A DNA stretch of 64,000 nucleotides, from assembly GCA_016926395.1 (NCBI GenBank), contig JAFGOT010000010.1, positions 13,081 through 77,080 of the forward strand, in the 5' to 3' direction. Origin of the DNA: Candidatus Woesearchaeota archaeon. Its GTDB lineage: Archaea; Nanobdellota; Nanobdellia; Woesearchaeales; SKGA01. Numbering within the stretch: position 1 is the first letter of the stretch; every line of letters starts with the position of its first letter. The notes under the pieces are model-generated. The model did no database searches. It was given only the letters and a program-made list of their open reading frames with translations, and had not been told where the DNA came from. Shown one piece after another: positions 7,016 to 57,553 of the stretch. A program made the translations under genes and the position numbers.

Positions 7016-9385
7016 TTATTCTGCAATTTGTTGTTGTGAATTTTGTTTTAGTTTTATTCTCTTAACTTCTTTTTCAATCCAGTCATTCCATTCAAAATAT
7101 ATCGCTTCGTGATCTTCTTTTCCTGATCGTTTAATTACTTTTTCAACTACTTTATGAAATGTGTCGTTTGCTAAGATTACAAATTCTGCTTCCATCAAAT
7201 CAGGTAACTTTTCTTTCATTGCGATTTCGAATATTCTTTGTTTTACTTTTGCTCGAAGTTGGATATTATCCCACATCGCATCCCAGTTTCCAGTGTATTC
7301 TTTAACTTTCGATGCAATATCTTTTAGTATTTCGCTTTCTCCGTTTAATAACTCTGGTGTTGGTTCTAAAGTGTCTGTTTTTGCGTTGTATTTCATCAAG
7401 TCTACAAAGCCACCTTCTGTTCCGGGATCTTTGTCCCAGTCTTTTCTTACTTCGGTTATTTGTAGCACTCTTCTCATTTTGTGAAGCCCATCGGCTGATT
7501 TTATTGGATTAACAATTATGATTATATCTGTTGCTTTAAACGAAGTATTTGGCACTCCAATATCATTGACTAATCGGTCATAAATACCATAAGGACTATC
7601 ACCGTGAATTGTTCCTGCTACAACATTTGCTGCAGCTCCAACTCTCATTGCTTCATAAAGTGCTTTTGCTTCTCCACTTCTTACTTCTCCAACAATTAAA
7701 GCACTATCTCCAAGACGCAAAGTACTTCGTATACCATCAGCTGCAGTAAATTCCCCGCCTGATTTTCCAAGTGCACTCGCAACTTTTATTGGTTGAATGT
7801 TAAAACCTAATTTTCTCATCGCAGTTCCTGGAAGTTCAAGCGTGTCTTCAACTGTTATAATTCTATGTCGTCTCATTATCTCAATTAATAGCGATGATAG
7901 AAAACTACTTTTACCTGAACTTCTCGTACCACACACAAGAAAAGTTCTTGTTCCATCTATTAAAAAAGACAATAATCCTGCCCCTAAAGGACTAAGCATT
8001 TTGTATTTTAGAAATAAAGGTAATGTCCATGGTTTGTCTCGATGTCGTCTAAATGAGAATGCTAAACCTGAAGGATCAAGTGGTTTTGTTATCGTACTTG
8101 TCCTAATACTTGCACCAGGTAATTCAAGTTCTGTATCAAGAATTGGATTCGCTTCATCAAGTGGTCGACCAGAAATCATTCTTAATTTTGATGCCCAACT
8201 TTCTGTATCACCGATGGTTGGAAAAATATTTGTTATACAATCATCATAATCTGCGTGTACAATAAATATAGGCACTTCTCCAGCTGGAGAGTTAACAGAT
8301 ATGTCCTGCATTTTTTCATCTTGAAGAAGAACTTCTATCAGTCCAAATCCCACTGTATATCTAACAAGTATTGCTGCTAGTTCTTCTACTTGTTTATCAT
8401 CTAGCGTTATATTTCTATAGTTTGCTAATTCAACAAGAAGATCTTTTCCTACATTGTGAAAAACTTCTCTCATTCTTGCAGGGTCGGTGAACTCATCGCT
8501 ATCCGGTTGATGCTCACTCATTATTTTTCTTGCAGTATCAAGTAAGTCATACAACTCTTCAGAAAGTTTAAACTCTGGTGGCATCACATGATATAAATAT
8601 TGAACCGTATCTGGTCTCTCAAAAATTACAACTTCTGTATCTCCAATTGTGTAGTTGTCAAGTTCAACTCCATTTTTTGGATATGTTGCCATAAGTTTTG
8701 TAAACATAAAATCTGGTTTTATTATTGGAAAGAATATTTTTCTGTATGCATCTCTGTTTCCAATTTCGTGTCCTTCAATATATGGTCTTGCTACTAAGAA
8801 AAACTTGGTTCCTTCTAAAAGTTCAAGTATGTGGTCGATTAATTTTACGTAATGAAGTATTCCTTCTGCTAAGTTTAAATCTAGTTCTTTGTCTGCTGCA
8901 ATTTGTTCCCTTCGTTTTATTCTTTTCAGTCTTACAAAACAAGAGATAGGATCTTTTTTTAGTTCTGTAAATAAAACACTGTGAAGTTCGTTGTATTTTG
9001 ATGCCAGTGTTGATGCTGCAATTGATTGTGCTAGAGAAGAATAACTAAACAATTCTTTATTTCTAATTAATTTTACATATAATTTTGCAAGTTCTTGAAG
9101 AAGGGAAACTTGCGTATAATCATACTCATAATTGTGTTTTTGTAAGAATACTAATTTTGTGGCGTTTGGATTTTCTATTAGCATATTTATTGCTTCATCC
9201 ATAGTTACTTCGTCATCTTCAATAGATGGAATTCTACCTCTATTTGCGTAATTAACTAGTATAGAAACGTCATCGCCTTCTCGTTCAACTTCATATTGAA
9301 GTTTCTTCTTTTTTTCGTCAAACGCCATTAAACCACTCAAACCCTCTTTTTGTGACTTTCTAGTAATACTGATATAATTTAGCAT
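7016..9385 (-). CDS. Type IV pilus assembly ATPase (TadA/VirB11/FlaI family) with long N-terminal extension
   Basis: Walker A GTRSSGKS, Asp box TVEDTLEL, LRLGDSALIVGEVRSGEA, TIHG His box. Start may instead be ATG 9328. Confidence 0.93.
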   Translation of the reverse strand: MLNYISITRKSQKEGLSGLMAFDEKKKKLQYEVEREGDDVSILVNYANRGRIPSIEDDEVTMDEAINMLIENPNATKLVFLQKHNYEYDYTQVSLLQELAKLYVKLIRNKELFSYSSLAQSIAASTLASKYNELHSVLFTELKKDPISCFVRLKRIKRREQIAADKELDLNLAEGILHYVKLIDHILELLEGTKFFLVARPYIEGHEIGNRDAYRKIFFPIIKPDFMFTKLMATYPKNGVELDNYTIGDTEVVIFERPDTVQYLYHVMPPEFKLSEELYDLLDTARKIMSEHQPDSDEFTDPARMREVFHNVGKDLLVELANYRNITLDDKQVEELAAILVRYTVGFGLIEVLLQDEKMQDISVNSPAGEVPIFIVHADYDDCITNIFPTIGDTESWASKLRMISGRPLDEANPILDTELELPGASIRTSTITKPLDPSGLAFSFRRHRDKPWTLPLFLKYKMLSPLGAGLLSFLIDGTRTFLVCGTRSSGKSSFLSSLLIEIMRRHRIITVEDTLELPGTAMRKLGFNIQPIKVASALGKSGGEFTAADGIRSTLRLGDSALIVGEVRSGEAKALYEAMRVGAAANVVAGTIHGDSPYGIYDRLVNDIGVPNTSFKATDIIIIVNPIKSADGLHKMRRVLQITEVRKDWDKDPGTEGGFVDLMKYNAKTDTLEPTPELLNGESEILKDIASKVKEYTGNWDAMWDNIQLRAKVKQRIFEIAMKEKLPDLMEAEFVILANDTFHKVVEKVIKRSGKEDHEAIYFEWNDWIEKEVKRIKLKQNSQQQIAE

Positions 9386-14414: not shown

Positions 14415-14483
14415 AGAAATTTTTATTTTAATTACTTATTACAATCGTGGCGTTAGCCAGATAACTTATTGGTGAATAAAAAA

Positions 14484-16190
14484 ATGTATCGAACACACAC
14501 ATGTGGAGAACTACGTGCTAAGCACGAGAATAGTGAAGTAACCCTTGCGGGTTGGGTTCATAAAGTTAGAACTCATGGCGCATTAACCTTCGTTGATCTT
14601 AGAGATCGATATGGTATAACACAAATTACAATTAACTCCGACGATGATTTAGATACTGATTTCACCAAAGAAAGTGTTATTCAAATTAAAGGAGTAGTTG
14701 TAAAAAAACCCGAAGCGAATAAAGCATTAGAGACTGGCGAAATAGAAGTTATTGCTAAAGAAGTTAATGTTCTTAGTAAATCCGAACCTCTTCCAATTGA
14801 TAACAACGCAACTGAAGATAACAGACTAAAATACAGGTATCTTGATATTCGTAACAATGGTGTTATTGATAATTTAGCTTTTAGAAGTGAAGCTGTTCTT
14901 ACAGTAAGAAACTTTTTTAGAAGTGAAAATTTTTTAGAAATTGAAACACCTCTTCTTGTTAAATCAACACCAGAAGGAGCAAGAGATTACGTTGTTCCCT
15001 CAAGAATTAATAAAGGAATGTTTTACGCGCTTCCACAATCTCCTCAGCTTTACAAGCAAATTTTAATGATTGCAGGAGCAGACAAATATTTTCAGTTAGC
15101 AAAATGTCTTAGAGATGAAGACCTTCGAGCAGATAGACAACCAGAACACACTCAAATTGACTTTGAAATGAGTTTTGTTCATCAAGAAGATATTCAAGCT
15201 TTTGTTGAAAGATTAATGAAAGATTTATTCAAAAGAACATTAAACAAAGAACTTGATTCATTCCCTGTATTTTCTTATGATAATGCAATGGCTAGATTTG
15301 GTAGCGATAAACCTGATATTCGTTTTGGTCTAGAATTAACTGATGTTACAAAAATTGGCAAAGAAACTGACTTTGCAGTTTTCAAAGAAGCAGAAGTAGT
15401 CAACGCGATTTTTGTTGAAAAAGATTTTTCTAGAAAAGAAATCGACAAATATACTGATCTTGTTAAAACATACAGAGCTAAGGGTTTAGCTTATTCAAAA
15501 ATTGTTGATAACAAATTCGATGGTGGTGTTAGTAAATTTTTAGACGCATCAGTTCAAGAAAAAATTATCTCTGCAATTAACGCAACTGGAAAAACTGGAA
15601 CGGTATTTTTTGTAGCAGATAGGCTTCGTATCAGTCAAACAGCTCTTGGTCACCTTCGAAACAAATTAGCACTTGATTTAGAGTTATACAATAAAGATGA
15701 TTTCAAATTCTGCTGGGTTAATGATTTCCCTCTATTCTCATATAATGAAGAAGAAGATAAATGGGAACCTGAACACCACATGTTTTCTATGCCTAAACCT
15801 GAATTTGTAAATGATTTCGAATCTCGTCCGGGAGAAGTAAAAGGAGACTTATGGGATCTTGTTCTAAATGGTTGGGAAATGGCTTCTGGTTCTATTAGAG
15901 TAAGTAATCCTAAAGTTCAAGAACGAATAATGAATTTTATTGGTCTTAACAAAGAAGAAGCAAATGAAAAATTTGGTTTCCTTCTTGATGCATATAAGTA
16001 CGGCGGTCCAATCCACGGCGGCATGGGTATTGGTGTTGATAGACTTGTTGCTCTTATGCTTCAATTCACTGATATCAGAGCGGTTATGGCATTTCCAAAA
16101 AACAAGAACGCGCAGTGCCCAATGGATGACTCTCCTAACAAAATCAGCGAGATTCAACTTGACGAACTTAGCATCAGCATAAACAAATAA
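14484..16190 (+). CDS. aspS: Aspartyl-tRNA synthetase, bacterial type (with GAD insertion)
   Basis: MYRTHTCGELR, RLKYRYLDIR, GARDYVVPSR, ALPQSPQLYKQ, CLRDEDLRADRQPEHTQID, HGGMGIGVDRL; about 570 aa. Confidence 0.96.
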   Translation: MYRTHTCGELRAKHENSEVTLAGWVHKVRTHGALTFVDLRDRYGITQITINSDDDLDTDFTKESVIQIKGVVVKKPEANKALETGEIEVIAKEVNVLSKSEPLPIDNNATEDNRLKYRYLDIRNNGVIDNLAFRSEAVLTVRNFFRSENFLEIETPLLVKSTPEGARDYVVPSRINKGMFYALPQSPQLYKQILMIAGADKYFQLAKCLRDEDLRADRQPEHTQIDFEMSFVHQEDIQAFVERLMKDLFKRTLNKELDSFPVFSYDNAMARFGSDKPDIRFGLELTDVTKIGKETDFAVFKEAEVVNAIFVEKDFSRKEIDKYTDLVKTYRAKGLAYSKIVDNKFDGGVSKFLDASVQEKIISAINATGKTGTVFFVADRLRISQTALGHLRNKLALDLELYNKDDFKFCWVNDFPLFSYNEEEDKWEPEHHMFSMPKPEFVNDFESRPGEVKGDLWDLVLNGWEMASGSIRVSNPKVQERIMNFIGLNKEEANEKFGFLLDAYKYGGPIHGGMGIGVDRLVALMLQFTDIRAVMAFPKNKNAQCPMDDSPNKISEIQLDELSISINK

Positions 16191-47676: not shown

Positions 47677-48276
47677 CTATTTTTTATTTAAAAGCTTATT
47701 TATAAAGGCCGAGTCGTACCCTCGCTTGATTAAAAGGTCTTCCAACTGGTTCTCAGTGTATCCTCGTTTTCTTAAATTATTAATATAAGGACTTAAGCTG
47801 ATTATTTGTTTTTTTTCATCACGCAAAATAGCTAGTTTGTGAGCTATAACCAAAACAACAACAATCAAAATCAAAATAATTCCAAAGATACTAGCAAAGA
47901 GAATCCAATTATTGCTAGGAATATTTCTTTCCTCATTTCGGGGCTCATCAGATATAACGACAATTTCTGTTTGAAAATCAAGATTCGTGTTGTTTTTTTC
48001 TTCTAAAGAAATGTTGTTTTTATTTGAAGCAGATTCGTTAACAACTAAAACAGCAGTATCAACTGCATTATATTCATCTCCAAAATCGCCCTCACAATAA
48101 AGATAATAGTCATCGCCCACCAAATCATAGTAATTTTCTGGATCATCTAAACAAAATGATTGGTTCCATTCCATCAGCTCCCCATTTAATGTTTGAACTT
48201 CAAAGGAATTAACAGAGTGAAAAGACAAAATTAACATAATAAAATAGACTAATCCGAAAAAATATTTTGTTTTCAT
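47677..48276 (-). CDS. Secreted membrane-anchored protein, last gene of the pilin/hydrolase run
   Basis: Signal peptide, acidic ectodomain, TM, cytoplasmic YI...GY...L...GY helical tail; ATG lies 1 bp after the hydrolase stop. Confidence 0.75.
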   Translation of the reverse strand: MKTKYFFGLVYFIMLILSFHSVNSFEVQTLNGELMEWNQSFCLDDPENYYDLVGDDYYLYCEGDFGDEYNAVDTAVLVVNESASNKNNISLEEKNNTNLDFQTEIVVISDEPRNEERNIPSNNWILFASIFGIILILIVVVLVIAHKLAILRDEKKQIISLSPYINNLRKRGYTENQLEDLLIKRGYDSAFINKLLNKK

Positions 48277-48277
48277 T

Positions 48278-51200
48278 TTATACTAAAAAGGTTTCATACC
48301 CATATTTTGAACTTATTTGATCTACTCCTTGAGCAACTAGCCCTTCTTGGTTTAAATCAATTTGTTGATATACTAAAATCGCTGGTTTGTAGTATTTTCC
48401 CATCACATTGTATTTACTAACGACATAAGAAGTATCTCCATCAACAAGCATTATTTTTGAGTTAGCATTTACACTTGTAGAAGATCTAACTGCATCATTA
48501 AATGCAGATATTAACTCTTGATCTTGTTCTATCAAAGCTCGCGTATCTTCTAGGTTGGTAATGTCATATCTATAAGTATCACGAAGTTTTGCTAACACAT
48601 CATAACCTGAATATTTACAAAAACGATCAGTTTCAGTTCTTTTGCTTTCGGCAATATTGAATTGGTTGGTCCCATACTCGAAATGCCAATCTTCATTTCC
48701 ATACCTTACAAATCCCAAAGAACACATTATATCTTCCATCAAAAGGGGATTTACTCCTTTTTTAGTAACCGCATCTTTCATTTCAATATCAATAGCGCCT
48801 GAAACCATGTGAGGACATAATTTTTGACCTTTAGGATTCGGATCACATGCTAAACTAGTATCGTAACCATTGGCAACAAATAACTTTTGTTGAATATCAT
48901 AAGTCCTATATGCTTGAGTTATAGATATTTCTAAATTTAATGGTTCTAAATAAAGTTGAGAAAGTTCATGTAATTTTAAGACCAATTCCTTATTTCCCGC
49001 ACATATTTTTCCAACACGCGTATTTTTTTCATCACAAGTTACTCGAGGTATATTTGCTATTCTATACAAATTTTCTCCTGTCGTTGGATGTTTTATTCCG
49101 GGATAGACTTCAAGTTCAATATCAGTATCATCAAACTTTGCAATTTCTGGTTTTGCAGCTTTTCCGTATAATTCTTCTAGCGTAATTTTTGGCTGATAAA
49201 AATTTTTACATACTAAACCTGAAATATATGATGATTCAGGAATTACTTTTGAAACTAAGCTTCCTGCCGTCATATCAGGCATTGGAAGGCCCTCCCAGTC
49301 AAAAGATTTGTTGTTTTCGTAAGCATCGAAGGAAGTTATTTTATAATAATAAGACATTCCTGGTTCGAATGGAAAATCTCCCCCATAAAATCTTAGTCTT
49401 GCATAATAAGTTATTTTAGAGTTTGTCGTTGTCTTGTAAAGAACACCAATCGTGTCTGCTTTTGATGGGTCTTCTATTTCTATTGCATCTATTGAATAAA
49501 ATTCATAATCAAAATAATTATTTGTTGAGTCTTTGTTTGTAGATATTTCTAGAGCAAATTTGTCTACAAAATGATCATCAATCGGAACATCCCAAGAGAG
49601 CATTGGAACGATGTCCTCAAGACAAGACGAGTAAGATGTTTTTCCATACGTTAGTTCTGGCGCTTTAGTATCATTTAGATAAACTGAGAAATCAATCGTC
49701 TCATCAGAAAAGGTTGTATGTGCTTGTAACCTAAAGTTGTGTTTGTTATCTTTACAAGATAATTGACCATAACCTTTTTTGTAAGGAACCCATTTCATAT
49801 CATTTTTTCCTTTAACAACAGCTAAAGAATCAAAGTCAACACCAACTTCCATAGATTTATCTTTAACAGGTCTTTCTATATCAAAATAAGTTTTATTTTT
49901 TTGATTATCATAAGTAATTTCTAAGTATTCTACATCGGAGAAGTCAAAAACAGCATCCGCAAGGTTCGCTATTGCTTTTAATGGTGCAAAGGCGATTTCT
50001 GATAAAACACTTATTGTTCCATCTTCTTTTTCTTCAGTTGTTTCGACAATATAAAATTTTACTGGATTAAAAGGAAGAGACAGTAAATATTTTTGAGTAT
50101 CTGAGTCAAGACCATAACTATCTCTATCACCTACATAAACCACGCCTGATTTTTCAAGGCGTATTGCAAAATCTTTCGTTGGTTTTTTCAATTGCGTGTT
50201 CAACTTTAATTCACAAGTGCAGCTTTCCTGACCATTTTCATAACAATCATATATTTGATCTATAAAATCATATCCAACAGCATTTTCTTCATCATCTATT
50301 GTTATTTTAATTTGATGTTTAGAATTAAAATTACTTATTTCATTTTTTATACATACATCTAATTTATCAGTACATTTTTCAGTCACATAATTTACAAAAG
50401 AATTTATTTCATCTAATTCTTCAAAGTTAATCTTGTCTTCTGTTATGAATTTTGGATTTATTGTAAAATAACTATTAGATTTTACTCTAGACCCACTAAC
50501 TCCCGCCATTAAAGATCCTGAGCACTGTTCTTGCAAAGCTTTTGCAACCAAATTAGGATATAAAAATATTTCATCATGTTTTGCTTTTTTCTCAAACGCG
50601 CCGCCCAATCTTGAAGCTCCCGTTTGTACATCTTCGTAAGTTATATCACTCCATTGCAAAGTAGAAGGTGGACGACCTAATCTTGCACTAGCGGCTTCTT
50701 TAATATATTTAGTGGTTGTTCCTCCTGAATTGTATGCCATTGCAACAAAGTAAAAGTTAGGATTTTGAGGATCAACTATTCTCGTGTCTGTCATCAAAGA
50801 ATTAAGCAAAGCAGCACCAGTCATTATTCCTTGTCTTGTATCTCCTGCTTTTAATTCCTCATACGAACAATATTCATTTGGTTGTCGATTTATTGACTCA
50901 CAAGTTATTGGTGCAATTTGCATCACTGTGCACATTCCAACCTCATTACAATTACCTTTACCAGGAGATCCTCCTCCTGACAAATATAAGTCTGCAGCAG
51001 ACCCTCCATTTACTTCTGTATTCATTATTGCTAAAATTAGTTCTGCAGGAACTTTAGGATATTTTTCGTGTGCTTCTAGAACATATTTTAATGAATCATG
51101 AGAATTTAAACTTCCTATTAATTCACTAACTGATTTTCTTGAGCCACTAAGTTGATTATTTATTTGTGTGAAGTCAACAGGAACAACACAATCACCACCT

Positions 51201-52387
51201 GATGACTCTTCAAAACCAGGTAGATTTTCTAACCCAGAATTAGAATATTCTAATCTTAAAACCAAATTAATTTCTGTTTCTTCATTCTTGAAAAAGGAAC
51301 TTGATAACGTTTCTCTTACAAGTCCTGACTGTGGACTAGAATGAACAATTTCATCATTCCCAACATAAACCATCATGTGCGTTGGTATTCCATCTTCAGG
51401 ATAAGTGAATAATATGTCTCCTGGAAGTGCGTTTTGTATTATGTTCTCTTTCGTACAAGAATCCCCTTCACAAACTATGTTTCCTTTTTTTGCGTCTTCA
51501 AAATATTCTTGGGTTGTTTTTCTCGTTTCAAAGAAATTTACTGTTGTGTGTTTTCCAAGCCACCACAAAAAACCCGCACCATCAAATCCTGGCTTTGTAA
51601 ATTCGCCAGTTTCTTCATTGACACTTTGTAATTCTACACCATAAAAAATATCTGCTAATAATGAATCCGCGTAGCTATAAGGTGATGATCCTCCTTTAAC
51701 ATATTGCATTGAAGTTCCTGATGATTTGTAAAATTGCTCAAAGTATGTTGCTCCTTGTGAAAAACAATCTCCTGAAGAGCAAACAAAAGTTCTTTCGTCT
51801 TTGTATGTTCCAAACAAACCTACAGGGTACTTAACTGCTTTAGATTCATCAAATGTTGCTTTTGAAGTTATAGGTATGTTTAGATTTTGGACCGAACCTT
51901 CAATTCGGATTTTATCTTTTTGAAGATTAGAATCTCTTTTTGATGTAATTATATCAATATAAGTGTTTCCTGCCAGAGAATAGTCTTTGTAACCAGATAA
52001 ATAATTGACTATTGTTCGTCTATAATAGTTTGTATAGCTCTCTAAAAAATCAGGTTGACAATTATCATTTTCAGAATTGTAATTTGGATAAAGATGAATA
52101 CCGCATTTTTTGAATTGTGGTTTTCCTGTTGTTTGAAATTCATATATACCGCTATTTTTGAAGAGCAAATCTTTTGCTAAGTTTTTAGAGTATTCTCCGC
52201 TTAATTCAACATAATTAGTTACTGCTTCTGATTGTTCATTAGCAAACAAGATATCATATTGTTTTAGACCAATAGGAGTCTCTAAAGGACTTCCACCAAA
52301 TACATCAAACACTCCTCCAAATATCATCAAGAGTAAAAAGACAACCCCAAATATGGGCCATGGATTAAATGCTTTTTTGTATTTCAT
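48278..52387 (-). CDS. Multidomain peptidoglycan hydrolase-like protein: class III signal, NlpC/P60 (Cys lost), SLT/lysozyme-like, Ig/Fn3-like, M15 Zn-peptidase
   Basis: KKA|FNPWPIFGVVFLLL. GFDGAGF...PGDILF...HMMVYVG...IVHSS. AELILAIMNTE...MQI...AMAYNSG. AYRT...Q...PHMVSGAID...EDWHFE. Confidence 0.85.
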   Translation of the reverse strand: MKYKKAFNPWPIFGVVFLLLMIFGGVFDVFGGSPLETPIGLKQYDILFANEQSEAVTNYVELSGEYSKNLAKDLLFKNSGIYEFQTTGKPQFKKCGIHLYPNYNSENDNCQPDFLESYTNYYRRTIVNYLSGYKDYSLAGNTYIDIITSKRDSNLQKDKIRIEGSVQNLNIPITSKATFDESKAVKYPVGLFGTYKDERTFVCSSGDCFSQGATYFEQFYKSSGTSMQYVKGGSSPYSYADSLLADIFYGVELQSVNEETGEFTKPGFDGAGFLWWLGKHTTVNFFETRKTTQEYFEDAKKGNIVCEGDSCTKENIIQNALPGDILFTYPEDGIPTHMMVYVGNDEIVHSSPQSGLVRETLSSSFFKNEETEINLVLRLEYSNSGLENLPGFEESSGGDCVVPVDFTQINNQLSGSRKSVSELIGSLNSHDSLKYVLEAHEKYPKVPAELILAIMNTEVNGGSAADLYLSGGGSPGKGNCNEVGMCTVMQIAPITCESINRQPNEYCSYEELKAGDTRQGIMTGAALLNSLMTDTRIVDPQNPNFYFVAMAYNSGGTTTKYIKEAASARLGRPPSTLQWSDITYEDVQTGASRLGGAFEKKAKHDEIFLYPNLVAKALQEQCSGSLMAGVSGSRVKSNSYFTINPKFITEDKINFEELDEINSFVNYVTEKCTDKLDVCIKNEISNFNSKHQIKITIDDEENAVGYDFIDQIYDCYENGQESCTCELKLNTQLKKPTKDFAIRLEKSGVVYVGDRDSYGLDSDTQKYLLSLPFNPVKFYIVETTEEKEDGTISVLSEIAFAPLKAIANLADAVFDFSDVEYLEITYDNQKNKTYFDIERPVKDKSMEVGVDFDSLAVVKGKNDMKWVPYKKGYGQLSCKDNKHNFRLQAHTTFSDETIDFSVYLNDTKAPELTYGKTSYSSCLEDIVPMLSWDVPIDDHFVDKFALEISTNKDSTNNYFDYEFYSIDAIEIEDPSKADTIGVLYKTTTNSKITYYARLRFYGGDFPFEPGMSYYYKITSFDAYENNKSFDWEGLPMPDMTAGSLVSKVIPESSYISGLVCKNFYQPKITLEELYGKAAKPEIAKFDDTDIELEVYPGIKHPTTGENLYRIANIPRVTCDEKNTRVGKICAGNKELVLKLHELSQLYLEPLNLEISITQAYRTYDIQQKLFVANGYDTSLACDPNPKGQKLCPHMVSGAIDIEMKDAVTKKGVNPLLMEDIMCSLGFVRYGNEDWHFEYGTNQFNIAESKRTETDRFCKYSGYDVLAKLRDTYRYDITNLEDTRALIEQDQELISAFNDAVRSSTSVNANSKIMLVDGDTSYVVSKYNVMGKYYKPAILVYQQIDLNQEGLVAQGVDQISSKYGYETFLV

Positions 52388-52390
52388 TTT

Positions 52391-53008
52391 TTATCGACGT
52401 ATGTTTGTTGAAAACGTATTTGAATCTCTTTTTTCATCAGTAGTTTTTATTTTGAACAAAATATATTTGTCAGTAGGATTAAATTGATCTCCTTTTTCGT
52501 AAAAAGGAATTTGTAATTCGACATCTACCTGTGCTTCATCAGAATAAACTATTCCCTTGTCTTGTAGGGATTCTGAGCTTGTTGCCCACGTACTTGCAAC
52601 TATAACCTTGTCTTGTTCTTGACCTAAAAAATAATAGGTAAAAGACGCCTCGGATTCAAACACCCCAGTTCTTAGGTGTGGTTTTATTGAGACTTCAGCC
52701 AAATCATACAACGCACGTCTTAATTCATTTTTTTCAGTGTAGTTGTTTAGATTAAAGTAATAATTAGCCCAATTTGCAACCTCTCTTGTTTCACCCTTGA
52801 ATTCCATTGGTGTTTGCAAATAAGTTCTTGCTAATTGTATTGTCTGGTATCCTTCTTTTAGACTAGCTACTTGTTGATAATTATCTTGTTTTTCTCTATC
52901 AGACATATTCATCATCAAAAAAAGACCAATAATAACTAAGGCTCCGCCTACTAAAAAGTAAAACCATTCTGAAGTATAGTCTCCTTTCTTGTTATTTTTT
53001 ATTCTCAT
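52391..53008 (-). CDS. Type IV pilin-like protein
   Basis: NNKKG|DYTSEWFYFLVGGALVIIGLFLMM, with Glu at +5. Confidence 0.8.
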   Translation of the reverse strand: MRIKNNKKGDYTSEWFYFLVGGALVIIGLFLMMNMSDREKQDNYQQVASLKEGYQTIQLARTYLQTPMEFKGETREVANWANYYFNLNNYTEKNELRRALYDLAEVSIKPHLRTGVFESEASFTYYFLGQEQDKVIVASTWATSSESLQDKGIVYSDEAQVDVELQIPFYEKGDQFNPTDKYILFKIKTTDEKRDSNTFSTNIRR

Positions 53009-53484
53009 GGTGTAAAGTATATCATTCCAGGTTTCATTGTTCCGTCATCTTTTGCCACGATTACATATCTTGCATAAGCAATTTTAGAAACAAAGGGATT
53101 TCCTATCAGAGCCGTTGTTTTAGGAAAATCTCCCTCAATTACGGGTTTTACAGTTATCGTAAATGCTTGTGGATAATTAGACTTAAAACAGGCATCAAGA
53201 TTTTCATTAGTTACTTTTCTTAAATCAATTACGTTTTGTTTAATCATATTTGTTTGTGGATCTTCATAAGCAAAGCAAATGTTTGTTGCTCTTGCTAACT
53301 TAAAATCTGCATCGATAGAATCATGAACTTCCGTTTTTGAATCCATATTTCTAACTACAAGGATGACAAATGCTGTGATTAAAGCCCCAACAAATAACAC
53401 CCATATGACATAGAAGAAAAACTTGTTTGTAGAAAGAAATCCTTCATGGTCATCTCCTCGTTTATTTTTTAGTAGCTTTTTCAT
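53005..53484 (-). CDS. Type IV pilin-like protein
   Basis: KNKRG| followed by a short polar stretch and hydrophobic helix FFFYVIWVLFVGALITAFVILVV. Confidence 0.72.
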   Translation of the reverse strand: MKKLLKNKRGDDHEGFLSTNKFFFYVIWVLFVGALITAFVILVVRNMDSKTEVHDSIDADFKLARATNICFAYEDPQTNMIKQNVIDLRKVTNENLDACFKSNYPQAFTITVKPVIEGDFPKTTALIGNPFVSKIAYARYVIVAKDDGTMKPGMIYFTP

Positions 53485-54359
53485 CGACCAACACCGTAAT
53501 ATTTTGAAAGTGAATAAGATATTAAATAACCCATTTTTCTTCTAATCGTATCTTCGCCAAATATTTTTTTGTTTTCAATGCTGTTTGCTAAACTAAACTC
53601 AATAACTTCCTTTTGACCATAATTTTTTGATATTGGAACAGTTAAAAGATTAAGTTCATTTTCTAGTAGTTTTTGCATGTTCTCTGCGATTGCTTTTGTA
53701 TCTTCCTCACCATCAGTCGAATAATAAATAATATTTTTGTCATTAACCAAACCGTCATGAGAACTTATTTTAACAGTTAAGGAGTTCGTATCGCCTGTTT
53801 CGAAATTTCGTTTTATTTCCTCTTTAACAATAATTGATAATTTTTCTAATGTTAAATCAAAACTGTTTACTCCCGTTGTATCAAATTCAACAGTTACATT
53901 TGGTTTTTCTTTTGATGTAACTTCAAGGACGTCAACCGCTTGAGTTGATTTAAAGTCCCCTAGTTTTATCTCATCTCCGGATTTAATTATATAAAAATCA
54001 GAAACATCTACATCTTGTTCTTTTGGAATACTCACTCCCTCTCGCAGAGTAAAATATCTTTTGTTAAACGAAAAATCGGTTTCTGGAGGTATCTCTCCAT
54101 CTTGAACTAAACTTATAGAATCTCCGTTTAATTTAACAGTATAACCATCTAATGTTTCAGGGTACTCATATCTAAAATCATAAGCTGTTGCTTGTGCAAT
54201 TTCCATCGTTCTTGCAACGTCTTCTGCAGTTACTGCTTTTTCAACAAGTAAAGGGTTTGAAGATTGACCCATAACGGTTCCAAACATAAGGATTAAAACA
54301 CCAATTAGTACAAACTCTCCAACTAAATATACTTGTGTTGATTTTGCACTTTTGTTCAT
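53481..54359 (-). CDS. Pilin-like membrane-anchored protein with possible degenerate Amidase_3-like C-terminal domain
   Basis: Basic N-terminus with atypical cleavage site, hydrophobic helix. C-terminal IIYY...KAIAENMQKLL...VIEF...MGYLISYSLSKYY pattern. Confidence 0.65.
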   Translation of the reverse strand: MNKSAKSTQVYLVGEFVLIGVLILMFGTVMGQSSNPLLVEKAVTAEDVARTMEIAQATAYDFRYEYPETLDGYTVKLNGDSISLVQDGEIPPETDFSFNKRYFTLREGVSIPKEQDVDVSDFYIIKSGDEIKLGDFKSTQAVDVLEVTSKEKPNVTVEFDTTGVNSFDLTLEKLSIIVKEEIKRNFETGDTNSLTVKISSHDGLVNDKNIIYYSTDGEEDTKAIAENMQKLLENELNLLTVPISKNYGQKEVIEFSLANSIENKKIFGEDTIRRKMGYLISYSLSKYYGVGR

Positions 54360-54373
54360 AAAAACCCCTCTTT

Positions 54374-55750
54374 TTAAGAAACAAAATTAATTAAACTATT
54401 TCCTTCGTTATCTATCTCAGATTTCAGTTTATAATTTGCAGATTCAATAACTAAATTTCCTGCACTTGTTCCTGTGATTGTAATACTATCTTTTTGCACT
54501 CCTTTAACACGAGGCATTGGATAAGGAAAAGATGTTGATGCTAAAACATCTTGTTCTTTTCTTAACTCTATTGTTGTTATTCCTGTTTTGTTATGAAAGT
54601 AGATATTGTATTCTTTTGATGTAGGAACTGATAAAAATACATTTACAAAATTTGTCTGTAATTGATATATACAAATATTAATATCAGGATTGTTCTTTCT
54701 ACAAAGAAGAAAATTTGTTTGAAGTTCCTTATCTAAATAGTTAAAACTTTGAATAACTTTATTTGTTTTCTCTAACTCTATTTTTTGTTTTTTAGCATTC
54801 TCAATTCCGTTTGTGTAAAGACATTTTGGTTGTATGCAAACACCTGTTATGTTTGTGTTAGGTATTTTCTCAAAAGTTATATTATAAAGAGGCACGCTAA
54901 GAATTTTTTCGTCTCTCTCTTTATTTGTTTGAGGTATTCCCATCCCGCCTATAACAACTCCGCCTTCCCAGAAATAATTATTTTTTATTACAAGTCTTCT
55001 TTTAGTCATTCCATCTCTATAGAAATTTCCTAAGTCAACTAGCACAGGAGCAGCACCTCCTGAGGAAACATATTTATGTTCATCAGGTTCAAAAATACTT
55101 GCCATCGTATCTCTAGCAGTTGTTTGTAATCCCATTGGTATTTCTAAAGGAAGTAACTGTGAATCAAAATCATTAAATTCTTTATCTAAGCCTCGCGAAT
55201 TTGCAAATATTGTGTTTGGGTTAGGTGCTTCTAAACATTGCATTTGAGAATCTTCCCAACTACCAAACACAGTTGTTGAAGGATAAATTCCAAGGGATCT
55301 AATATATGGAGATTCCATTTTTTGTTCCCAGAATTTTGCATTAGAGCTGTAACAAACACACGCTTTATTTTGACAAACTTCCAAATCAGGTCTTTTGAAA
55401 ACAAAATCTCCATTAATAAGAATATCATTAATATCTGTCGTCAAAGGATTAGAGATTCCTGAATATTTTATTTTTATTGGACCGACTCCTTCTGAGAAAA
55501 AAAGAAAAGCATCACCTGTAGCACCAACTATTACTTGAGTACTAATGTTTGGTTTTGCTGGATCATCTAAATTTTCTAAATATGCATTAAATGAAGTTAG
55601 TTTTCCTGAATTATCAAAGTGCTTTTTTGATAGTAGAGGATTGCTATGCGCCACATTAAAACAACCAACAGTTAACAATGCAATCATCACTAAAGAGAGT
55701 AATATTCCCATTGGAATGCCAGACCCTTTTTGATAATTAACAAACGTCAT
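54374..55750 (-). CDS. Large type IV pilin-like protein (minor pilin/adhesin)
   Basis: YQKG|SGIPMGILLSLVMIALL; CQNKACVC Cys cluster. Confidence 0.75.
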   Translation of the reverse strand: MTFVNYQKGSGIPMGILLSLVMIALLTVGCFNVAHSNPLLSKKHFDNSGKLTSFNAYLENLDDPAKPNISTQVIVGATGDAFLFFSEGVGPIKIKYSGISNPLTTDINDILINGDFVFKRPDLEVCQNKACVCYSSNAKFWEQKMESPYIRSLGIYPSTTVFGSWEDSQMQCLEAPNPNTIFANSRGLDKEFNDFDSQLLPLEIPMGLQTTARDTMASIFEPDEHKYVSSGGAAPVLVDLGNFYRDGMTKRRLVIKNNYFWEGGVVIGGMGIPQTNKERDEKILSVPLYNITFEKIPNTNITGVCIQPKCLYTNGIENAKKQKIELEKTNKVIQSFNYLDKELQTNFLLCRKNNPDINICIYQLQTNFVNVFLSVPTSKEYNIYFHNKTGITTIELRKEQDVLASTSFPYPMPRVKGVQKDSITITGTSAGNLVIESANYKLKSEIDNEGNSLINFVS

Positions 55751-56415
55751 TATTTTGATTTATCCTCAGCAGCTTTTTCTTCCCTCATCCTGGAACAAGT
55801 GTCAGGATCAGTCTTACAACCTGTTGGTTTTTGGTTATCTGTTTCTAATAAATCAGAAACAAATTGTGTATATGTACACTCTTCGGTCGCAGGAAGCGAT
55901 TTTGGAATGCACAAGTCTTTAAGTTCAGCATTCGGAGTAAAATCTACAAATTCAAAATTATAATCTGCCAATTTTATGCTTTGAGAATTTTCTTTTTGAA
56001 ATAAATCATAAAGAGTATCTACTTCGGATTCACTAAGTCTCAAGTATGGTTTTGGGTTTTCTATTAAAACATTTGTTTGGCTTAATTTACCATCAAAATA
56101 TCCATTTAGATAACCTGCTTCTTTCCCGTGCCAAGGCTTAATATCTGTAGCGTACAAATCTTCTTTTATCAAATAATACCTTTCGCTCGTTTTTCCGCCT
56201 GTGATTTCCCTATCACAAGCACAAGTTCCTTGCACACTTTCTAAGTAATCTGTCACTCCGTCATTATCAGTATCTTGAAACTTTGAGAATTCTGCAACTT
56301 GACCCCATGAGGAACCAACACCTTTGCCATATATCAATGCATAACCACCAATTGCTAGCACAATAATAAATATAGTTATTACCAATTGTTCCATTGCACC
56401 CTTATTGTTCATCAT
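55750..56415 (-). CDS. Type IV pilin-like protein with DxDxDG Ca-binding motif
   Basis: NNKG|AMEQLVITIFIIVLAIGG; DTDNDGVTD...CACD. Confidence 0.8.
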   Translation of the reverse strand: MMNNKGAMEQLVITIFIIVLAIGGYALIYGKGVGSSWGQVAEFSKFQDTDNDGVTDYLESVQGTCACDREITGGKTSERYYLIKEDLYATDIKPWHGKEAGYLNGYFDGKLSQTNVLIENPKPYLRLSESEVDTLYDLFQKENSQSIKLADYNFEFVDFTPNAELKDLCIPKSLPATEECTYTQFVSDLLETDNQKPTGCKTDPDTCSRMREEKAAEDKSK

Positions 56416-56430
56416 CTTAATATCACCTGT

Positions 56431-57354
56431 TTAATCAATTTGTACTACCATGTGTTCTCGAATTAAATCATCTATCAATTCAGGACTAGTCAAACCGTTT
56501 CCATCAACCTCAATAGGGGCTTTGTTTGTTAGCTCGGTTGCGGTAATTCCTGATTGTGGGAAAAAAACAACATAATTATCTAATCTGTAAATCAAAATAT
56601 AATCATTACTCCGTTCAGCAATAGTTCTCCCTTCTAAATCATTTTGATAATCATCATAATAAATTTCCGATTTCTTTTCTGTTGAAAAAGCAAACGTCTT
56701 TACAACATTTCGTTCTAGAATTTTATCAAGAGAATAATACGGATCATCCTTTAAATCATTGGGTTTATTATTATTAATTGGAAATCCGGTAGTGTGATAC
56801 AAAAATATTGGTTCGTCGTTTTTGTTCTCTCCTCTAGACATCACAACAAATTTTTTGTCGTTTAGTAAAGAACGGATTGTAATTCTGTCAATATCATTAT
56901 CAAACAGCGCTGCTTCAAAATAAGCTGCTGAACCTGTTTGCAACGACTTTAAATCGTTTGCTCTAAATAATCTGTCTGCATCACGCGATGAGTAAAGTCT
57001 CATCTCACCATCAACTTCAACAAAACCTATCAAATATTTATCCTCTAAAACATCTCTCTTTACTAAGAAAAACTGTCCTTTTTTAACTGGACTTGGTAAT
57101 TGTTTTGTTAAATAAGAATCATCAAGTAATTTTTTAACTATTTCAAAAGAATATATTTTTGCTTCCGTAGAAACAGGTTCTTTAGCGGCAAATATTTTTT
57201 CAGGCAGGTATTTTTCCAAGGATGCTTTTGATTCAATTTGTCTTTTCAAATCACCAACAGCATTAGGATATATTAAAACAAAAACCATGAAACCTATGAC
57301 TACTGCAATAAGAGAAATCAGTAAGTTTGAGATTGCGCGTTTATTATTAATCAT
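56431..57354 (-). CDS. Type IV pilin-like protein
   Basis: MINNKRA|ISNLLISLIAVVIGFMVFVL; ATG 57354 preferred because it overlaps the upstream gene's end. Confidence 0.78.
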   Translation of the reverse strand: MINNKRAISNLLISLIAVVIGFMVFVLIYPNAVGDLKRQIESKASLEKYLPEKIFAAKEPVSTEAKIYSFEIVKKLLDDSYLTKQLPSPVKKGQFFLVKRDVLEDKYLIGFVEVDGEMRLYSSRDADRLFRANDLKSLQTGSAAYFEAALFDNDIDRITIRSLLNDKKFVVMSRGENKNDEPIFLYHTTGFPINNNKPNDLKDDPYYSLDKILERNVVKTFAFSTEKKSEIYYDDYQNDLEGRTIAERSNDYILIYRLDNYVVFFPQSGITATELTNKAPIEVDGNGLTSPELIDDLIREHMVVQID

Positions 57355-57553
57355 TTGTCGATCCAAATAGGCCTCCTGTATAATCAACTAGGTTGTCAAC
57401 ATTTCTATCAAATAATCCATGTTGACTTGCAATAAACATCGCACCAACCAACAACAGTACAACCATAAATAAAATCCAAAGTAGAAGTTGATTGCCTTTA
57501 GTATTATGAAACACCCAGTTTCTTCTTATTAAAAATATTAGGTCTCTAATCAA
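57347..57553 (-). CDS. Small type IV pilin-like protein (68 aa)
   Basis: HNTKG|NQLLLWILFMVVLLLVGAMF; ATGA overlap with the upstream gene. Confidence 0.72.
   Translation of the reverse strand: MIRDLIFLIRRNWVFHNTKGNQLLLWILFMVVLLLVGAMFIASQHGLFDRNVDNLVDYTGGLFGSTND

What the first reader, a model, noticed from the sequence alone, without database searches (positions are those of the whole stretch)
48278..52387. 1369-aa tri-domain murein hydrolase with its own pilin-like N-terminus
Seen: MKYKKA|FNPWPIFGVVFLLLMIFGG, then an NlpC/P60-like domain (about 51240-51720). An SLT/lysozyme-like domain follows (about 50520-51130) with catalytic Glu in AIMNTE plus MQI and AYNSG motifs. After an Ig/Fn3-like spacer comes an M15 Zn-peptidase (about 48600-49000) with R...Q, H-x6-D and ExWH intact. 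Established: SLT cleaves the glycan backbone and M15 cleaves D-Ala-containing stem peptides; these bonds occur in bacterial murein and not in archaeal pseudomurein or S-layers. Inference: a single pilus-incorporated enzyme that cuts both glycan and peptide to open a local hole.
Basis: partly seen in the sequence, partly recalled or inferred. Interest (0 to 1): 0.85.

Follow-up and report, generated by a model that had tools for sequence, protein, structure and literature searches.

The report
Pilin-type archaeal carrier of bacterial-wall hydrolases
A tiny DPANN (Woesearchaeota-type) archaeon with no bacterial-type wall genes of its own encodes a 1369-residue surface protein with a pilin-like leader, two apparently active bacterial-wall-cutting domains and a third that has lost its catalytic residue; it points to contact with or attack on bacteria, though this class of protein is already reported in these archaea.

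Summary
The ORF (48278-52387, minus strand, 1369 aa) is real.

- **Domains:** Profile and fold searches confirm three murein-hydrolase folds at the stated positions.
  - NlpC/P60 passes Pfam's cut-off and has fold Z 13.7.
  - SLT passes Pfam's cut-off, and its Glu458 aligns with the catalytic Glu of MltC.
  - The M15B/VanY-like zinc peptidase is sub-threshold alone. A 33-member family profile hits VanXY/LdcB at E 1e-12, and the fold matches LdcB, VanY and VanX.
- **Correction:** The NlpC/P60 nucleophile Cys is replaced by Gly270, so this domain is probably non-catalytic. It is still under purifying selection.
- **Leader:** The leader is conserved across 44 relatives as [K/R][K/R]-[G/A] plus a hydrophobic helix, the class III (prepilin) signature. 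The genome has an A24 prepilin peptidase.
- **Context:** In 20 of 20 related loci the gene directly follows a chain of pilin-like genes.
- **Wider class:** The leader plus about 170 residues forms a carrier. It was found once per genome in 137 of 200 sampled genomes of the order, with M23, SLT, Amidase_2 or NlpC/P60 in the next slot.
- **Own wall:** No murein-synthesis genes were found in this genome.

Large extracellular SLT proteins of Woesearchaeota are already published (Castelle 2021; Vigneron 2022). This scan has found the same class on other DNA at least seven times. Pilus incorporation is untested.

The parts
52289..52387 (-). Residues 1-33: class III (prepilin-type) signal-like leader. 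It reads MKYKK-A, then FNPWPIF and a hydrophobic helix.
   Evidence: It is the only TM-like segment of the protein. The [K/R][K/R]-[G/A/S] motif before the hydrophobic core is conserved in 41 of 44 family members. The model shows a helix at residues 10-29.
51788..52288 (-). Residues 34-200: N-domain, the 'carrier' module. It has a long helix (39-77) and a mixed alpha/beta part, and belongs to no known family.
   Evidence: It is conserved in all family members. Model positions 1-175 match once per genome in 137 of 200 genomes of the order. There was no convincing PDB fold match and no Atlas hit.
51239..51787 (-). Residues 201-383: NlpC/P60 fold with Gly270 in place of the catalytic Cys. His337 and His349 are retained. 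Probably non-catalytic.
   Evidence: Pfam E 4e-8, above the cut-off. Fold Z 13.7, rmsd 2.4 A over 127 residues to 6bim, with LytE and 7cfl close behind. Cys->Gly is seen. dN/dS is 0.12.
50513..51115 (-). Residues 425-625: SLT (GH23-type) lytic transglycosylase domain with catalytic Glu458, VMQI and AYNSG.
   Evidence: Pfam is above the cut-off. All 10 family SLT domains hit PF01464. The profile aligns the invariant Glu with the catalytic Glu of MltC (4c5f, E 3e-4).
49208..50470 (-). Residues 640-1060: two conserved Cys-rich middle modules (mid1, mid2) of unknown fold.
   Evidence: They are conserved across the family. There is no Pfam or PDB sequence match. Only weak Ig/Fn3 leads came from the Atlas.
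48602..49135 (-). Residues 1085-1262: M15B/VanY-like (LAS fold) zinc peptidase domain with R1161, H1193, D1200, E1232 and H1235.
   Evidence: 94 relatives were found. The listed residues are invariant or nearly so. 31 of 33 relatives hit Pfam VanY. The profile hits VanXYc and YodJ at E 1e-12. The model has pLDDT >90, and Foldseek's top hits are LdcB, VanY and VanX.
48281..48601 (-). Residues 1263-1369: C-terminal tail found only in this protein and its 78%-identical orthologue. Function unknown.
   Evidence: The deep search matched only query positions up to ~220 of 319 in all other proteins. The model has low pLDDT here. dN/dS is 0.20.
52391..62643 (-). Upstream same-strand cluster of 15 ORFs. 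Each has one N-terminal basic-G/A motif plus a hydrophobic helix (pilin-like), and the last one ends 3 nt before the hydrolase start.
   Evidence: 13 of the 15 pass a criterion met by 11.3% of ORFs genome-wide. The same arrangement is seen in 20 of 20 related loci.
47677..48276 (-). Downstream 199-aa ORF, starting 1 nt after the hydrolase stop. It has a Sec-type signal, an ectodomain, one TM helix and a conserved cytoplasmic tail.
   Evidence: It is 46% identical to the ORF at the same position in L007, and only the tail is conserved in L004. It has no Pfam family.
7016..9385 (-). T2SSE/PilB-FlaI-type secretion ATPase. It is the candidate assembly motor and lies about 39 kb from the hydrolase.
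   Evidence: Pfam PF00437, E 7e-15.

Best explanation
The protein is exported through the archaeal type IV pilin-like route and displayed on the cell surface together with the products of the ~15 upstream pilin-like genes. There it acts on the murein of a bacterial partner or prey on contact.

Proposed steps:
- The A24 prepilin peptidase probably cuts the class III-type leader after Ala6.
- The hydrophobic helix and the ~170-residue N-domain form a conserved carrier.
- The SLT domain cleaves the glycan strand, with Glu458 as the acid catalyst.
- The M15B-like zinc domain trims or cleaves D-Ala-containing stem peptides.
- The NlpC/P60 domain has lost its nucleophile (Gly270). It most likely serves as a stem-peptide-binding or structural module, like M. 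tuberculosis RipD.

Shown: the domain identities, the state of the catalytic residues, the conserved operon position, the carrier's spread, and the lack of detected murein-synthesis genes in this genome. Inferred: leader cleavage, surface or filament location, the bacterial target, and substrate specificity.
For: - **Domains:**
- **Catalytic residues:** Glu458 is invariant in 10 of 10 SLT domains. The M15 residues R, H-x6-D and E-x-W-H are invariant or nearly so in 33 sequences.
- **Dead NlpC/P60:** across 21 loci the nucleophile position is Cys in 13, Ser in 5 and Gly in 3. The domain is still constrained (dN/dS 0.12 against 0.09 for SLT and 0.08 for M15). RipD appears among the fold hits as a precedent.
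- **Leader:** 37 of 44 members have G, A or S right after the last basic residue, and 4 more have K-G just upstream. Gln is the commonest +1 residue. PF01478 is present in the genome at E 3e-15, and a T2SSE ATPase lies in the window.
- **Operon:** in 20 of 20 loci the hydrolase follows a pilin-like chain with a gap of -11 to +39 nt. The base rate of the criterion is 11.3%. Synteny holds down to 33% identity.
- **Carrier:** 137 of 200 genomes of the order match, 135 of them once. Among 18 sampled carriers, the next slot holds M23 in 8 (plus one sub-threshold), SLT in 3, Amidase_2 in 2 and NlpC/P60 in 1.
- **No own murein:** no Mur_ligase_M, transpeptidase or FtsW/RodA was found.
- **Literature:** Woesearchaeota and Pacearchaeota encode large extracellular SLT proteins thought to target bacteria (PMC8204110, PMC9723730).
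Against: - No experiment supports any of this, and no cleavage or localisation data exist.
- This protein's leader has Asn and Pro at +2, +3 and +5 (FNPWP), which is unusual for a pilin helix. The model breaks the helix at residues 30-38 rather than forming one long pilin-type alpha-1 helix.
- The N-domain shows no pilin fold and no homology to the neighbouring pilin-like proteins (hhalign probability <1%).
- The M15 domain's nearest solved relatives are carboxypeptidases and dipeptidases, which do not break cross-links.
- The genome is only 82.5% complete, so the absence of wall-synthesis genes is not proof.
- The assembly ATPase is about 39 kb away, not in the operon.
Confidence: 0.6

Rival explanations
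1. The protein is a plain membrane-anchored or bindosome-like surface enzyme. The N-terminal helix only tethers it, cleaved or not, to the archaeal membrane, and it never enters a filament. The pilin-like neighbours form a separate structure that merely brings the cells together.
For: - The model breaks the helix at residues 30-38, and the N-domain has no pilin fold.
- There is no homology to neighbouring pilin-like proteins.
- Prolines follow the putative cleavage site.
- A 1369-aa cargo is very large for a filament subunit.
- From my own knowledge, untested here: class III signals on non-filament proteins are known, such as the Sulfolobus sugar-binding proteins.
Against: - The gene is tightly coupled as the closing gene of the pilin-like chain in 20 of 20 loci.
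- The carrier is single-copy across the order, which fits a dedicated minor or tip subunit.
Confidence: 0.27
2. The protein is a scavenging enzyme. It digests wall debris of dead bacteria to supply amino sugars and amino acids to a metabolically poor cell, without contact with living bacteria.
For: - The genome is small, about 1 Mb.
- The literature proposes that DPANN recycle cell material (PMC9723730).
Against: - The protein is tethered rather than free.
- It sits in an operon with surface-filament genes.
- No AnmK, needed to use the anhydro-MurNAc made by lytic transglycosylases, was found. The genome is incomplete, so this is weak evidence.
Confidence: 0.09
3. The protein is a housekeeping autolysin that remodels the archaeon's own wall so that its pili can pass. 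This would be analogous to the lytic transglycosylases attached to bacterial secretion and pilus machines.
For: From my own knowledge: bacterial T4SS, T3SS and flagellar systems carry dedicated SLT-type enzymes. The operon link with pilin-like genes is formally compatible with this.
Against: - No Mur ligase, PBP or SEDS genes were found.
- SLT and M15 chemistry targets MurNAc-GlcNAc bonds and D-Ala-containing stem peptides. These are absent from archaeal envelopes, including pseudomurein (established knowledge).
Confidence: 0.03

Closest known systems
[quoted passage not shown] 2021, PMC8204110; also AR20 in Castelle 2015 and the Lake A MAGs of Vigneron et al. 2022, PMC9723730)
   Same: Same lineage, same large extracellular design, same SLT domain, and the same proposed target (bacterial walls).
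   Different: As far as I could read, those papers report the SLT domain only. They do not report the class III-type leader, the conserved carrier N-domain, the position at the end of a pilin-like operon, the swappable first-slot hydrolase (M23, SLT, Amidase_2 or NlpC/P60), the M15 domain, or the loss of the NlpC/P60 nucleophile.
RipD (Rv1566c) of Mycobacterium tuberculosis, a non-catalytic NlpC/P60 domain (PDB 4lj1, 4jxb)
   Same: An NlpC/P60 fold without the catalytic Cys. The entry titles describe it as adapted to bind peptidoglycan. It appears among the fold hits.
   Different: RipD is a small bacterial periplasmic protein acting on the cell's own wall. Here the dead domain is one module of a multi-enzyme archaeal surface protein. 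Binding was not tested.
VanY / VanXY / LdcB (YodJ, DacB) M15B zinc carboxypeptidases (PDB 4mph, 4mur, 4ox3, 5hnm) and the phage M15 endolysin Ply500 (2vo9)
   Same: Same LAS fold. Same Arg, H-x6-D and E-x-x-H residues.
   Different: About 17-18% identity. The domain is below Pfam's cut-offs on its own. It is fused behind 1080 residues of other modules, and its specificity (carboxypeptidase or endopeptidase) is unknown.
MltC-type family 1 lytic transglycosylases (PDB 4c5f, 9vi7)
   Same: The catalytic Glu, the (G)LMQ motif and the AYNxG motif all align.
   Different: Val rather than Ser follows the Glu (TEV against TES). A Cys-rich insert lies between the Glu and the MQ motif. The sequence match is weak (E 3e-4).
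Archaeal class III signal-peptide proteins that are not filament subunits (Sulfolobus bindosome sugar-binding proteins), and large bacterial minor pilins that sit at filament tips (GspK, CofB/TcpB). Both are recalled from my own knowledge.
   Same: A prepilin-type leader on a large non-pilin cargo, encoded with pilin genes.
   Different: None of these carries peptidoglycan hydrolase domains. No fold similarity was shown here.

Membership tests
NlpC/P60 (PF00877) cysteine peptidase | Sequence match above Pfam's gathering score | tested here: met
   33.5 bits against a cut-off of 23, residues 264-369.
NlpC/P60 (PF00877) cysteine peptidase | Papain-like alpha+beta fold | tested here: met
   Z 13.7, rmsd 2.4 A over 127 residues to 6bim. 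LytE, 7cfl and MepS score Z 12-13.6.
NlpC/P60 (PF00877) cysteine peptidase | Catalytic Cys nucleophile | tested here: not met
   Gly270 aligns with the LytE Cys. The position is Gly in P0001, P0002 and P0004, and Cys in 13 of 21 family loci.
NlpC/P60 (PF00877) cysteine peptidase | Catalytic His and third polar residue | tested here: met
   His337 (THM) and His349 (IVHS) are retained.
SLT / GH23 family 1 lytic transglycosylase (PF01464) | Sequence match above Pfam's gathering score | tested here: met
   23.8 bits against 21.3 for the whole protein. 28.6 bits for the domain alone. 10 of 10 family domains match.
SLT / GH23 family 1 lytic transglycosylase (PF01464) | Catalytic Glu, plus the (G)LMQ and AYNxG motifs | tested here: met
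   Glu458 is invariant and aligns with the Glu of the MltC MQTES motif. MQ and AYN-G are conserved.
SLT / GH23 family 1 lytic transglycosylase (PF01464) | Lysozyme-like fold | not tested
Peptidase M15B (VanY/LdcB type; PF02557, PF01427) | Sequence match above Pfam's gathering score | tested here: not met
   15.0 bits against 27 (PF01427) and 12.5 against 25 (PF02557) for this protein. However, 31 of 33 aligned relatives match VanY (best 1.7e-18), and the family profile hits VanXYc and YodJ at E 1e-12.
Peptidase M15B (VanY/LdcB type; PF02557, PF01427) | LAS (Hedgehog / DD-peptidase) fold | tested here: met
   The model core has pLDDT >90. Foldseek's top 24 hits are all M15 enzymes at probability 0.99-1.00, with TM about 0.5 normalised to the target.
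Peptidase M15B (VanY/LdcB type; PF02557, PF01427) | Zinc ligands H-x6-D and a distal His, a catalytic Glu (E-x-x-H), and a substrate-binding Arg | tested here: met
   H1193, D1200, E1232, H1235 and R1161 are invariant or at least 90% conserved in 33 sequences. They are present in the large family members except for E1232 in P0012.
Archaeal class III signal peptide / type IV pilin-like protein | A short basic stretch ending in G/A at -1, followed by a hydrophobic helix | tested here: met
   The leader reads KK-A, then FNPWPIFGVVF.... 41 of 44 family members carry the motif.
Archaeal class III signal peptide / type IV pilin-like protein | A cognate prepilin peptidase and an assembly ATPase in the genome | tested here: met
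   PF01478 at E 2.8e-15 on contig 9. PF00437 ATPase at window 7016-9385.
Archaeal class III signal peptide / type IV pilin-like protein | Cleavage by the peptidase and polymerisation into a filament | not testable with these tools
   This needs biochemistry or imaging.
Archaeal class III signal peptide / type IV pilin-like protein | Pilin-type globular domain packed on a continuous alpha-1 helix | tested here: inconclusive
   The model shows helix 10-29, a break, then helix 39-77 at moderate pLDDT. No pilin appears among the fold hits, but the NlpC/P60 domain fills that list.
fam00969, large extracellular SLT proteins of Woesearchaeota/Pacearchaeota (Castelle 2021) | A large extracellular protein with an SLT domain in a Woesearchaeota or Pacearchaeota genome | tested here: met
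   The protein is 1369 aa with a single N-terminal TM and an SLT domain. Relatives lie in records named Woesearchaeota, Nanobdellota or Nanoarchaeia. Direct membership of the published cluster could not be checked.

The most novel reading that the evidence does not exclude
The leader plus the ~170-residue N-domain is a dedicated, single-copy minor pilin of a Woesearchaeal type IV filament. It sits at the filament tip and presents interchangeable murein-hydrolase heads (M23, SLT, Amidase_2, NlpC/P60, M15, YkuD, SGNH). This would be an archaeal 'pilus-tip drill' for breaching bacterial walls, and it would imply that most of this order lives on or preys on bacteria rather than archaea.
Probability: 0.3. 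Interest if true: 0.8.

Novelty: new variant of a known kind. Interest (0 to 1): 0.55.

Why it matters
The hosts of most DPANN archaea are unknown. Here a conserved, single-copy, pilin-type carrier almost always bears enzymes specific for bacterial murein. It is present in about two thirds of the sampled genomes of the order. That gives a concrete molecular handle on the question. The protein could be used as an antigen or probe to find the partner cells, and its domains can be assayed on sacculi of candidate hosts. The repeated loss of the NlpC/P60 nucleophile, with the domain still constrained, also gives a natural series in which a hydrolase turns into a likely binding module.

Tried and rejected
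- **Middle region (640-1060).** Pfam gave nothing significant. A six-sequence profile against PDB sequences gave only villin at E 0.63. The Atlas gave Ig/Fn3 and phage tip-J Ig leads at scores <=0.81, within the tool's stated chance range. The 'Ig/Fn3 spacer' stays unverified.
- **N-domain.** There was no Atlas hit. The only PDB fold matches were Z~5 helical ones. hhalign against the 14 neighbouring cluster proteins gave probabilities below 1%.
- **NCBIfam and PHROGs.** These returned only weak echoes of the same three domains.
- **Promoter and terminator scan.** It uses bacterial consensus patterns and found no more sites than in shuffled sequence, so it is uninformative for an archaeon.
- **Word-indexed homologue search.** It found only 3 relatives. 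The exhaustive search and the genome scans were needed to see the family.
- **Paralogues.** None of the family domains recurs in this genome.
- **Compensation idea.** I considered whether loss of the NlpC/P60 Cys always goes with gain of M15. It does not: M15 occurs with both Cys and non-Cys members.
- **Literature.** The 2026 survey of archaeal T4F systems does not mention hydrolase-bearing pilins and finds DPANN poor in recognisable T4F systems.

Full report
**Observation.** The minus-strand ORF 48278..52387 encodes 1369 residues. Its only TM-like segment is at the N-terminus, residues ~8-33. Pfam places NlpC/P60 at 264-369 (E 4e-8) and SLT at 440-564 (E 3.5e-5), both above the curated cut-offs. 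At the C-terminus there are only sub-threshold hits to Peptidase_M15 and VanY.

**Organism.** The window has 32% GC and encodes an RPA-type single-strand-binding protein next to the gene. It belongs to a 1.02-Mb assembly of 40 contigs that is 82.5% complete. Full-length relatives of the protein lie only in records named Candidatus Woesearchaeota, Nanobdellota, Nanoarchaeia or Nanoarchaeota, or in auto-labelled MAGs. Bacterial hits cover only the ~100-residue NlpC/P60 core. Earlier notes of this scan also call the genome Woesearchaeota.

**M15 domain.**
- An exhaustive search with residues 1051-1369 found 94 relatives, matching query positions ~40-210.
- In an alignment with 32 of them, R1161, H1193, D1200, E1232 and W1234 are invariant, and H1235 is at least 90% conserved.
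- 31 of 33 members match Pfam VanY, best E 1.7e-18.
- The family profile hits VanXYc (4mur, 9e-13), YodJ/LdcB (4ox3, 1e-12), Ply500 and VanX.
- The AlphaFold model has pLDDT above 90 over the domain.
- Foldseek returns LdcB, VanXY, VanX, VanY and phage M15 endolysins at probability about 1.0.

The M15 call is therefore sound. However, the nearest solved relatives are carboxypeptidases and dipeptidases, so cleavage of cross-links is not established.

**SLT domain.** Ten family SLT domains all match PF01464. Their profile aligns the invariant Glu (Glu458 here) with the catalytic Glu of MltC, and the MQ and AYNxG motifs align as well.

**NlpC/P60 domain.**
- The fold is clear: Z 13.7 at rmsd 2.4 A over 127 residues, with LytE, MepS and CwlO among the hits.
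- The nucleophile is missing. LytE GFDCSGF aligns with GFDGAGF here, so the position is Gly270.
- Across 21 family loci this position is Cys in 13, Ser in 5 and Gly in 3. The same-genus genome has Ala. Several Ser members have also lost the catalytic His.
- Against the 78%-identical orthologue, dN/dS for this domain is 0.12, compared with 0.09 for SLT and 0.08 for M15. dS exceeds 1, so these ratios are rough.

The domain is kept but is probably not a peptidase. RipD, a non-catalytic NlpC/P60 domain described in its PDB entry as adapted to bind peptidoglycan, appears among the fold hits.

**Leader.** In 44 non-identical family members, the last charged residue before the hydrophobic core is Lys or Arg in 39. 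The next residue is Gly (20), Ala (14) or Ser (3). Four more members carry K-G just upstream. Gln is the commonest +1 residue. This is the signature of archaeal class III (prepilin) signals. The genome encodes an A24 prepilin peptidase, and the window holds a T2SSE-type ATPase.

This protein's own leader (KKA, then FNPWP...) is atypical in carrying Asn and Pro after the putative cleavage site. Its subfamily shares that feature.

**Genomic context.**
- Fifteen ORFs upstream (52391-62643), all on the same strand, each have one such leader. 13 of the 15 pass a criterion met by 11.3% of ORFs genome-wide.
- The last of them ends 3 nt before the hydrolase start.
- In 20 of 20 related loci with upstream DNA, the hydrolase directly follows such a chain, with a gap of -11 to +39 nt.
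- The order 'cluster, hydrolase, RPA, YdjM, ABC transporter' persists down to 33% identity.

**A wider class.**
- A profile of residues 1-400 matched 137 of 200 sampled genomes of the order, 135 of them once. Among genomes at least 90% complete, 100 of 152 matched.
- Three of the matching genomes (G111, G120, G182) are unpublished. Only that tally rests on them; without them it is 134 of 197.
- Only four genomes match the full chassis. The rest match positions ~1-175, that is, the leader plus the first part of the N-domain.
- In 18 sampled proteins of that kind, the slot just after this carrier holds Peptidase_M23 in 8 (plus one sub-threshold), SLT in 3, Amidase_2 in 2 and NlpC/P60 in 1. YkuD, GDSL/SGNH and 3D domains lie further along.
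- Within the NlpC/P60-headed branch, the later modules also vary: SLT or another lysozyme-like module, M15, Amidase_2, SGNH, YkuD.

**Target.** No Mur ligase, PBP transpeptidase or FtsW/RodA was found in the genome. There is no other VanY-type domain, no paralogue of any family domain and no AnmK. These absences carry the caveat of 82.5% completeness. SLT and M15 chemistry is specific for murein (established knowledge). The target is therefore most likely a bacterial wall.

**What stays open.**
- The N-domain has no fold match, no Atlas hit and no homology to neighbouring pilin-like proteins.
- The model breaks the N-terminal helix at residues 30-38.
- The middle region and the C-terminal tail have no assignable fold.
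- Cleavage of the leader, filament incorporation and substrate specificity are all untested.

**Comparison with the literature.** Castelle et al. [quoted passage not shown] Vigneron et al. 2022 (PMC9723730) make the predation argument. Strock et al. 2025 (PMC12352652) show that archaeal peptidoglycan hydrolases kill bacteria, and they cite the Woesearchaeota case. I found no paper that links these proteins to class III signals, to a carrier domain or to pilin operons.

Within this scan the same class has been reported at least seven times on other genomes. My results agree with those notes.

**Verdict.** This is a well-resolved member of a published class. Two points are specific to this protein: the loss of the NlpC/P60 nucleophile and a verified M15B-like domain. 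It also adds further evidence for an unpublished organising principle: a pilin-type carrier with exchangeable murein-hydrolase heads that closes a pilin-like operon.

Noticed in passing
L002:1291-2868 (-) = G000 contig 6, about 14483-16060: A second SLT protein in the same genome (525 aa). It has canonical QES, GIMQL and AYNWG motifs but no signal peptide or TM segment, and it is not part of a pilin cluster. Its role is unknown; a mobile-element or viral origin is possible.
   Followed up: partly
window 47677-48276 (-): A 199-aa ORF starts 1 nt after the hydrolase stop. It has a Sec-type signal, an acidic ectodomain, one TM helix and a conserved cytoplasmic tail (RGY...FINK). It is 46% identical at the same position in L007; only the tail is conserved in L004, and it is absent in L006. 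It could be an accessory or anchoring partner.
   Followed up: partly
window 59344-59604 (-): An 86-aa Cys-rich ORF with a textbook class III leader (KKG, then TELSMNVIIIAAIAIL...). It is the smallest member of the cluster and a candidate major filament subunit.
   Followed up: no
window 62654-63907 (-): A 417-aa ORF at the head of the cluster. It has repeated Cys-rich GVDCGG-C units, one central TM helix and a long Gln/Lys/Glu-rich tail. No family was assigned.
   Followed up: no
whole genome G000 (contigs 15 and 19 above all): 117 of 1036 gene-like ORFs (11%) pass a loose pilin-like N-terminus test. 25 of them are on contig 15 and 20 on contig 19. Several proteins of more than 1000 aa on contigs 4, 24 and 37 also pass. 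The test also catches some ordinary membrane proteins.
   Followed up: partly
L006:14284-14949 (+): In the relative that carries P0004, a Polysacc_deac_1 gene lies two genes downstream of the hydrolase. This is the peptidoglycan/chitin deacetylase family.
   Followed up: no
P0006, P0007, P0009, P0012, P0017, P0030 and P0003, at the position of the SLT domain: These family members carry a different Cys-rich module with a DPALLxTHxxxESSxG motif where this protein has SLT. It looks like another lysozyme or transglycosylase-type domain, but Pfam does not recognise it.
   Followed up: no
L072:471-5033 (-) = G127, same genus: The same-genus orthologue (1520 aa) has Ala at the NlpC/P60 nucleophile position and a GDSL/SGNH domain in place of this protein's later modules. 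The cargo therefore differs even within a genus.
   Followed up: partly
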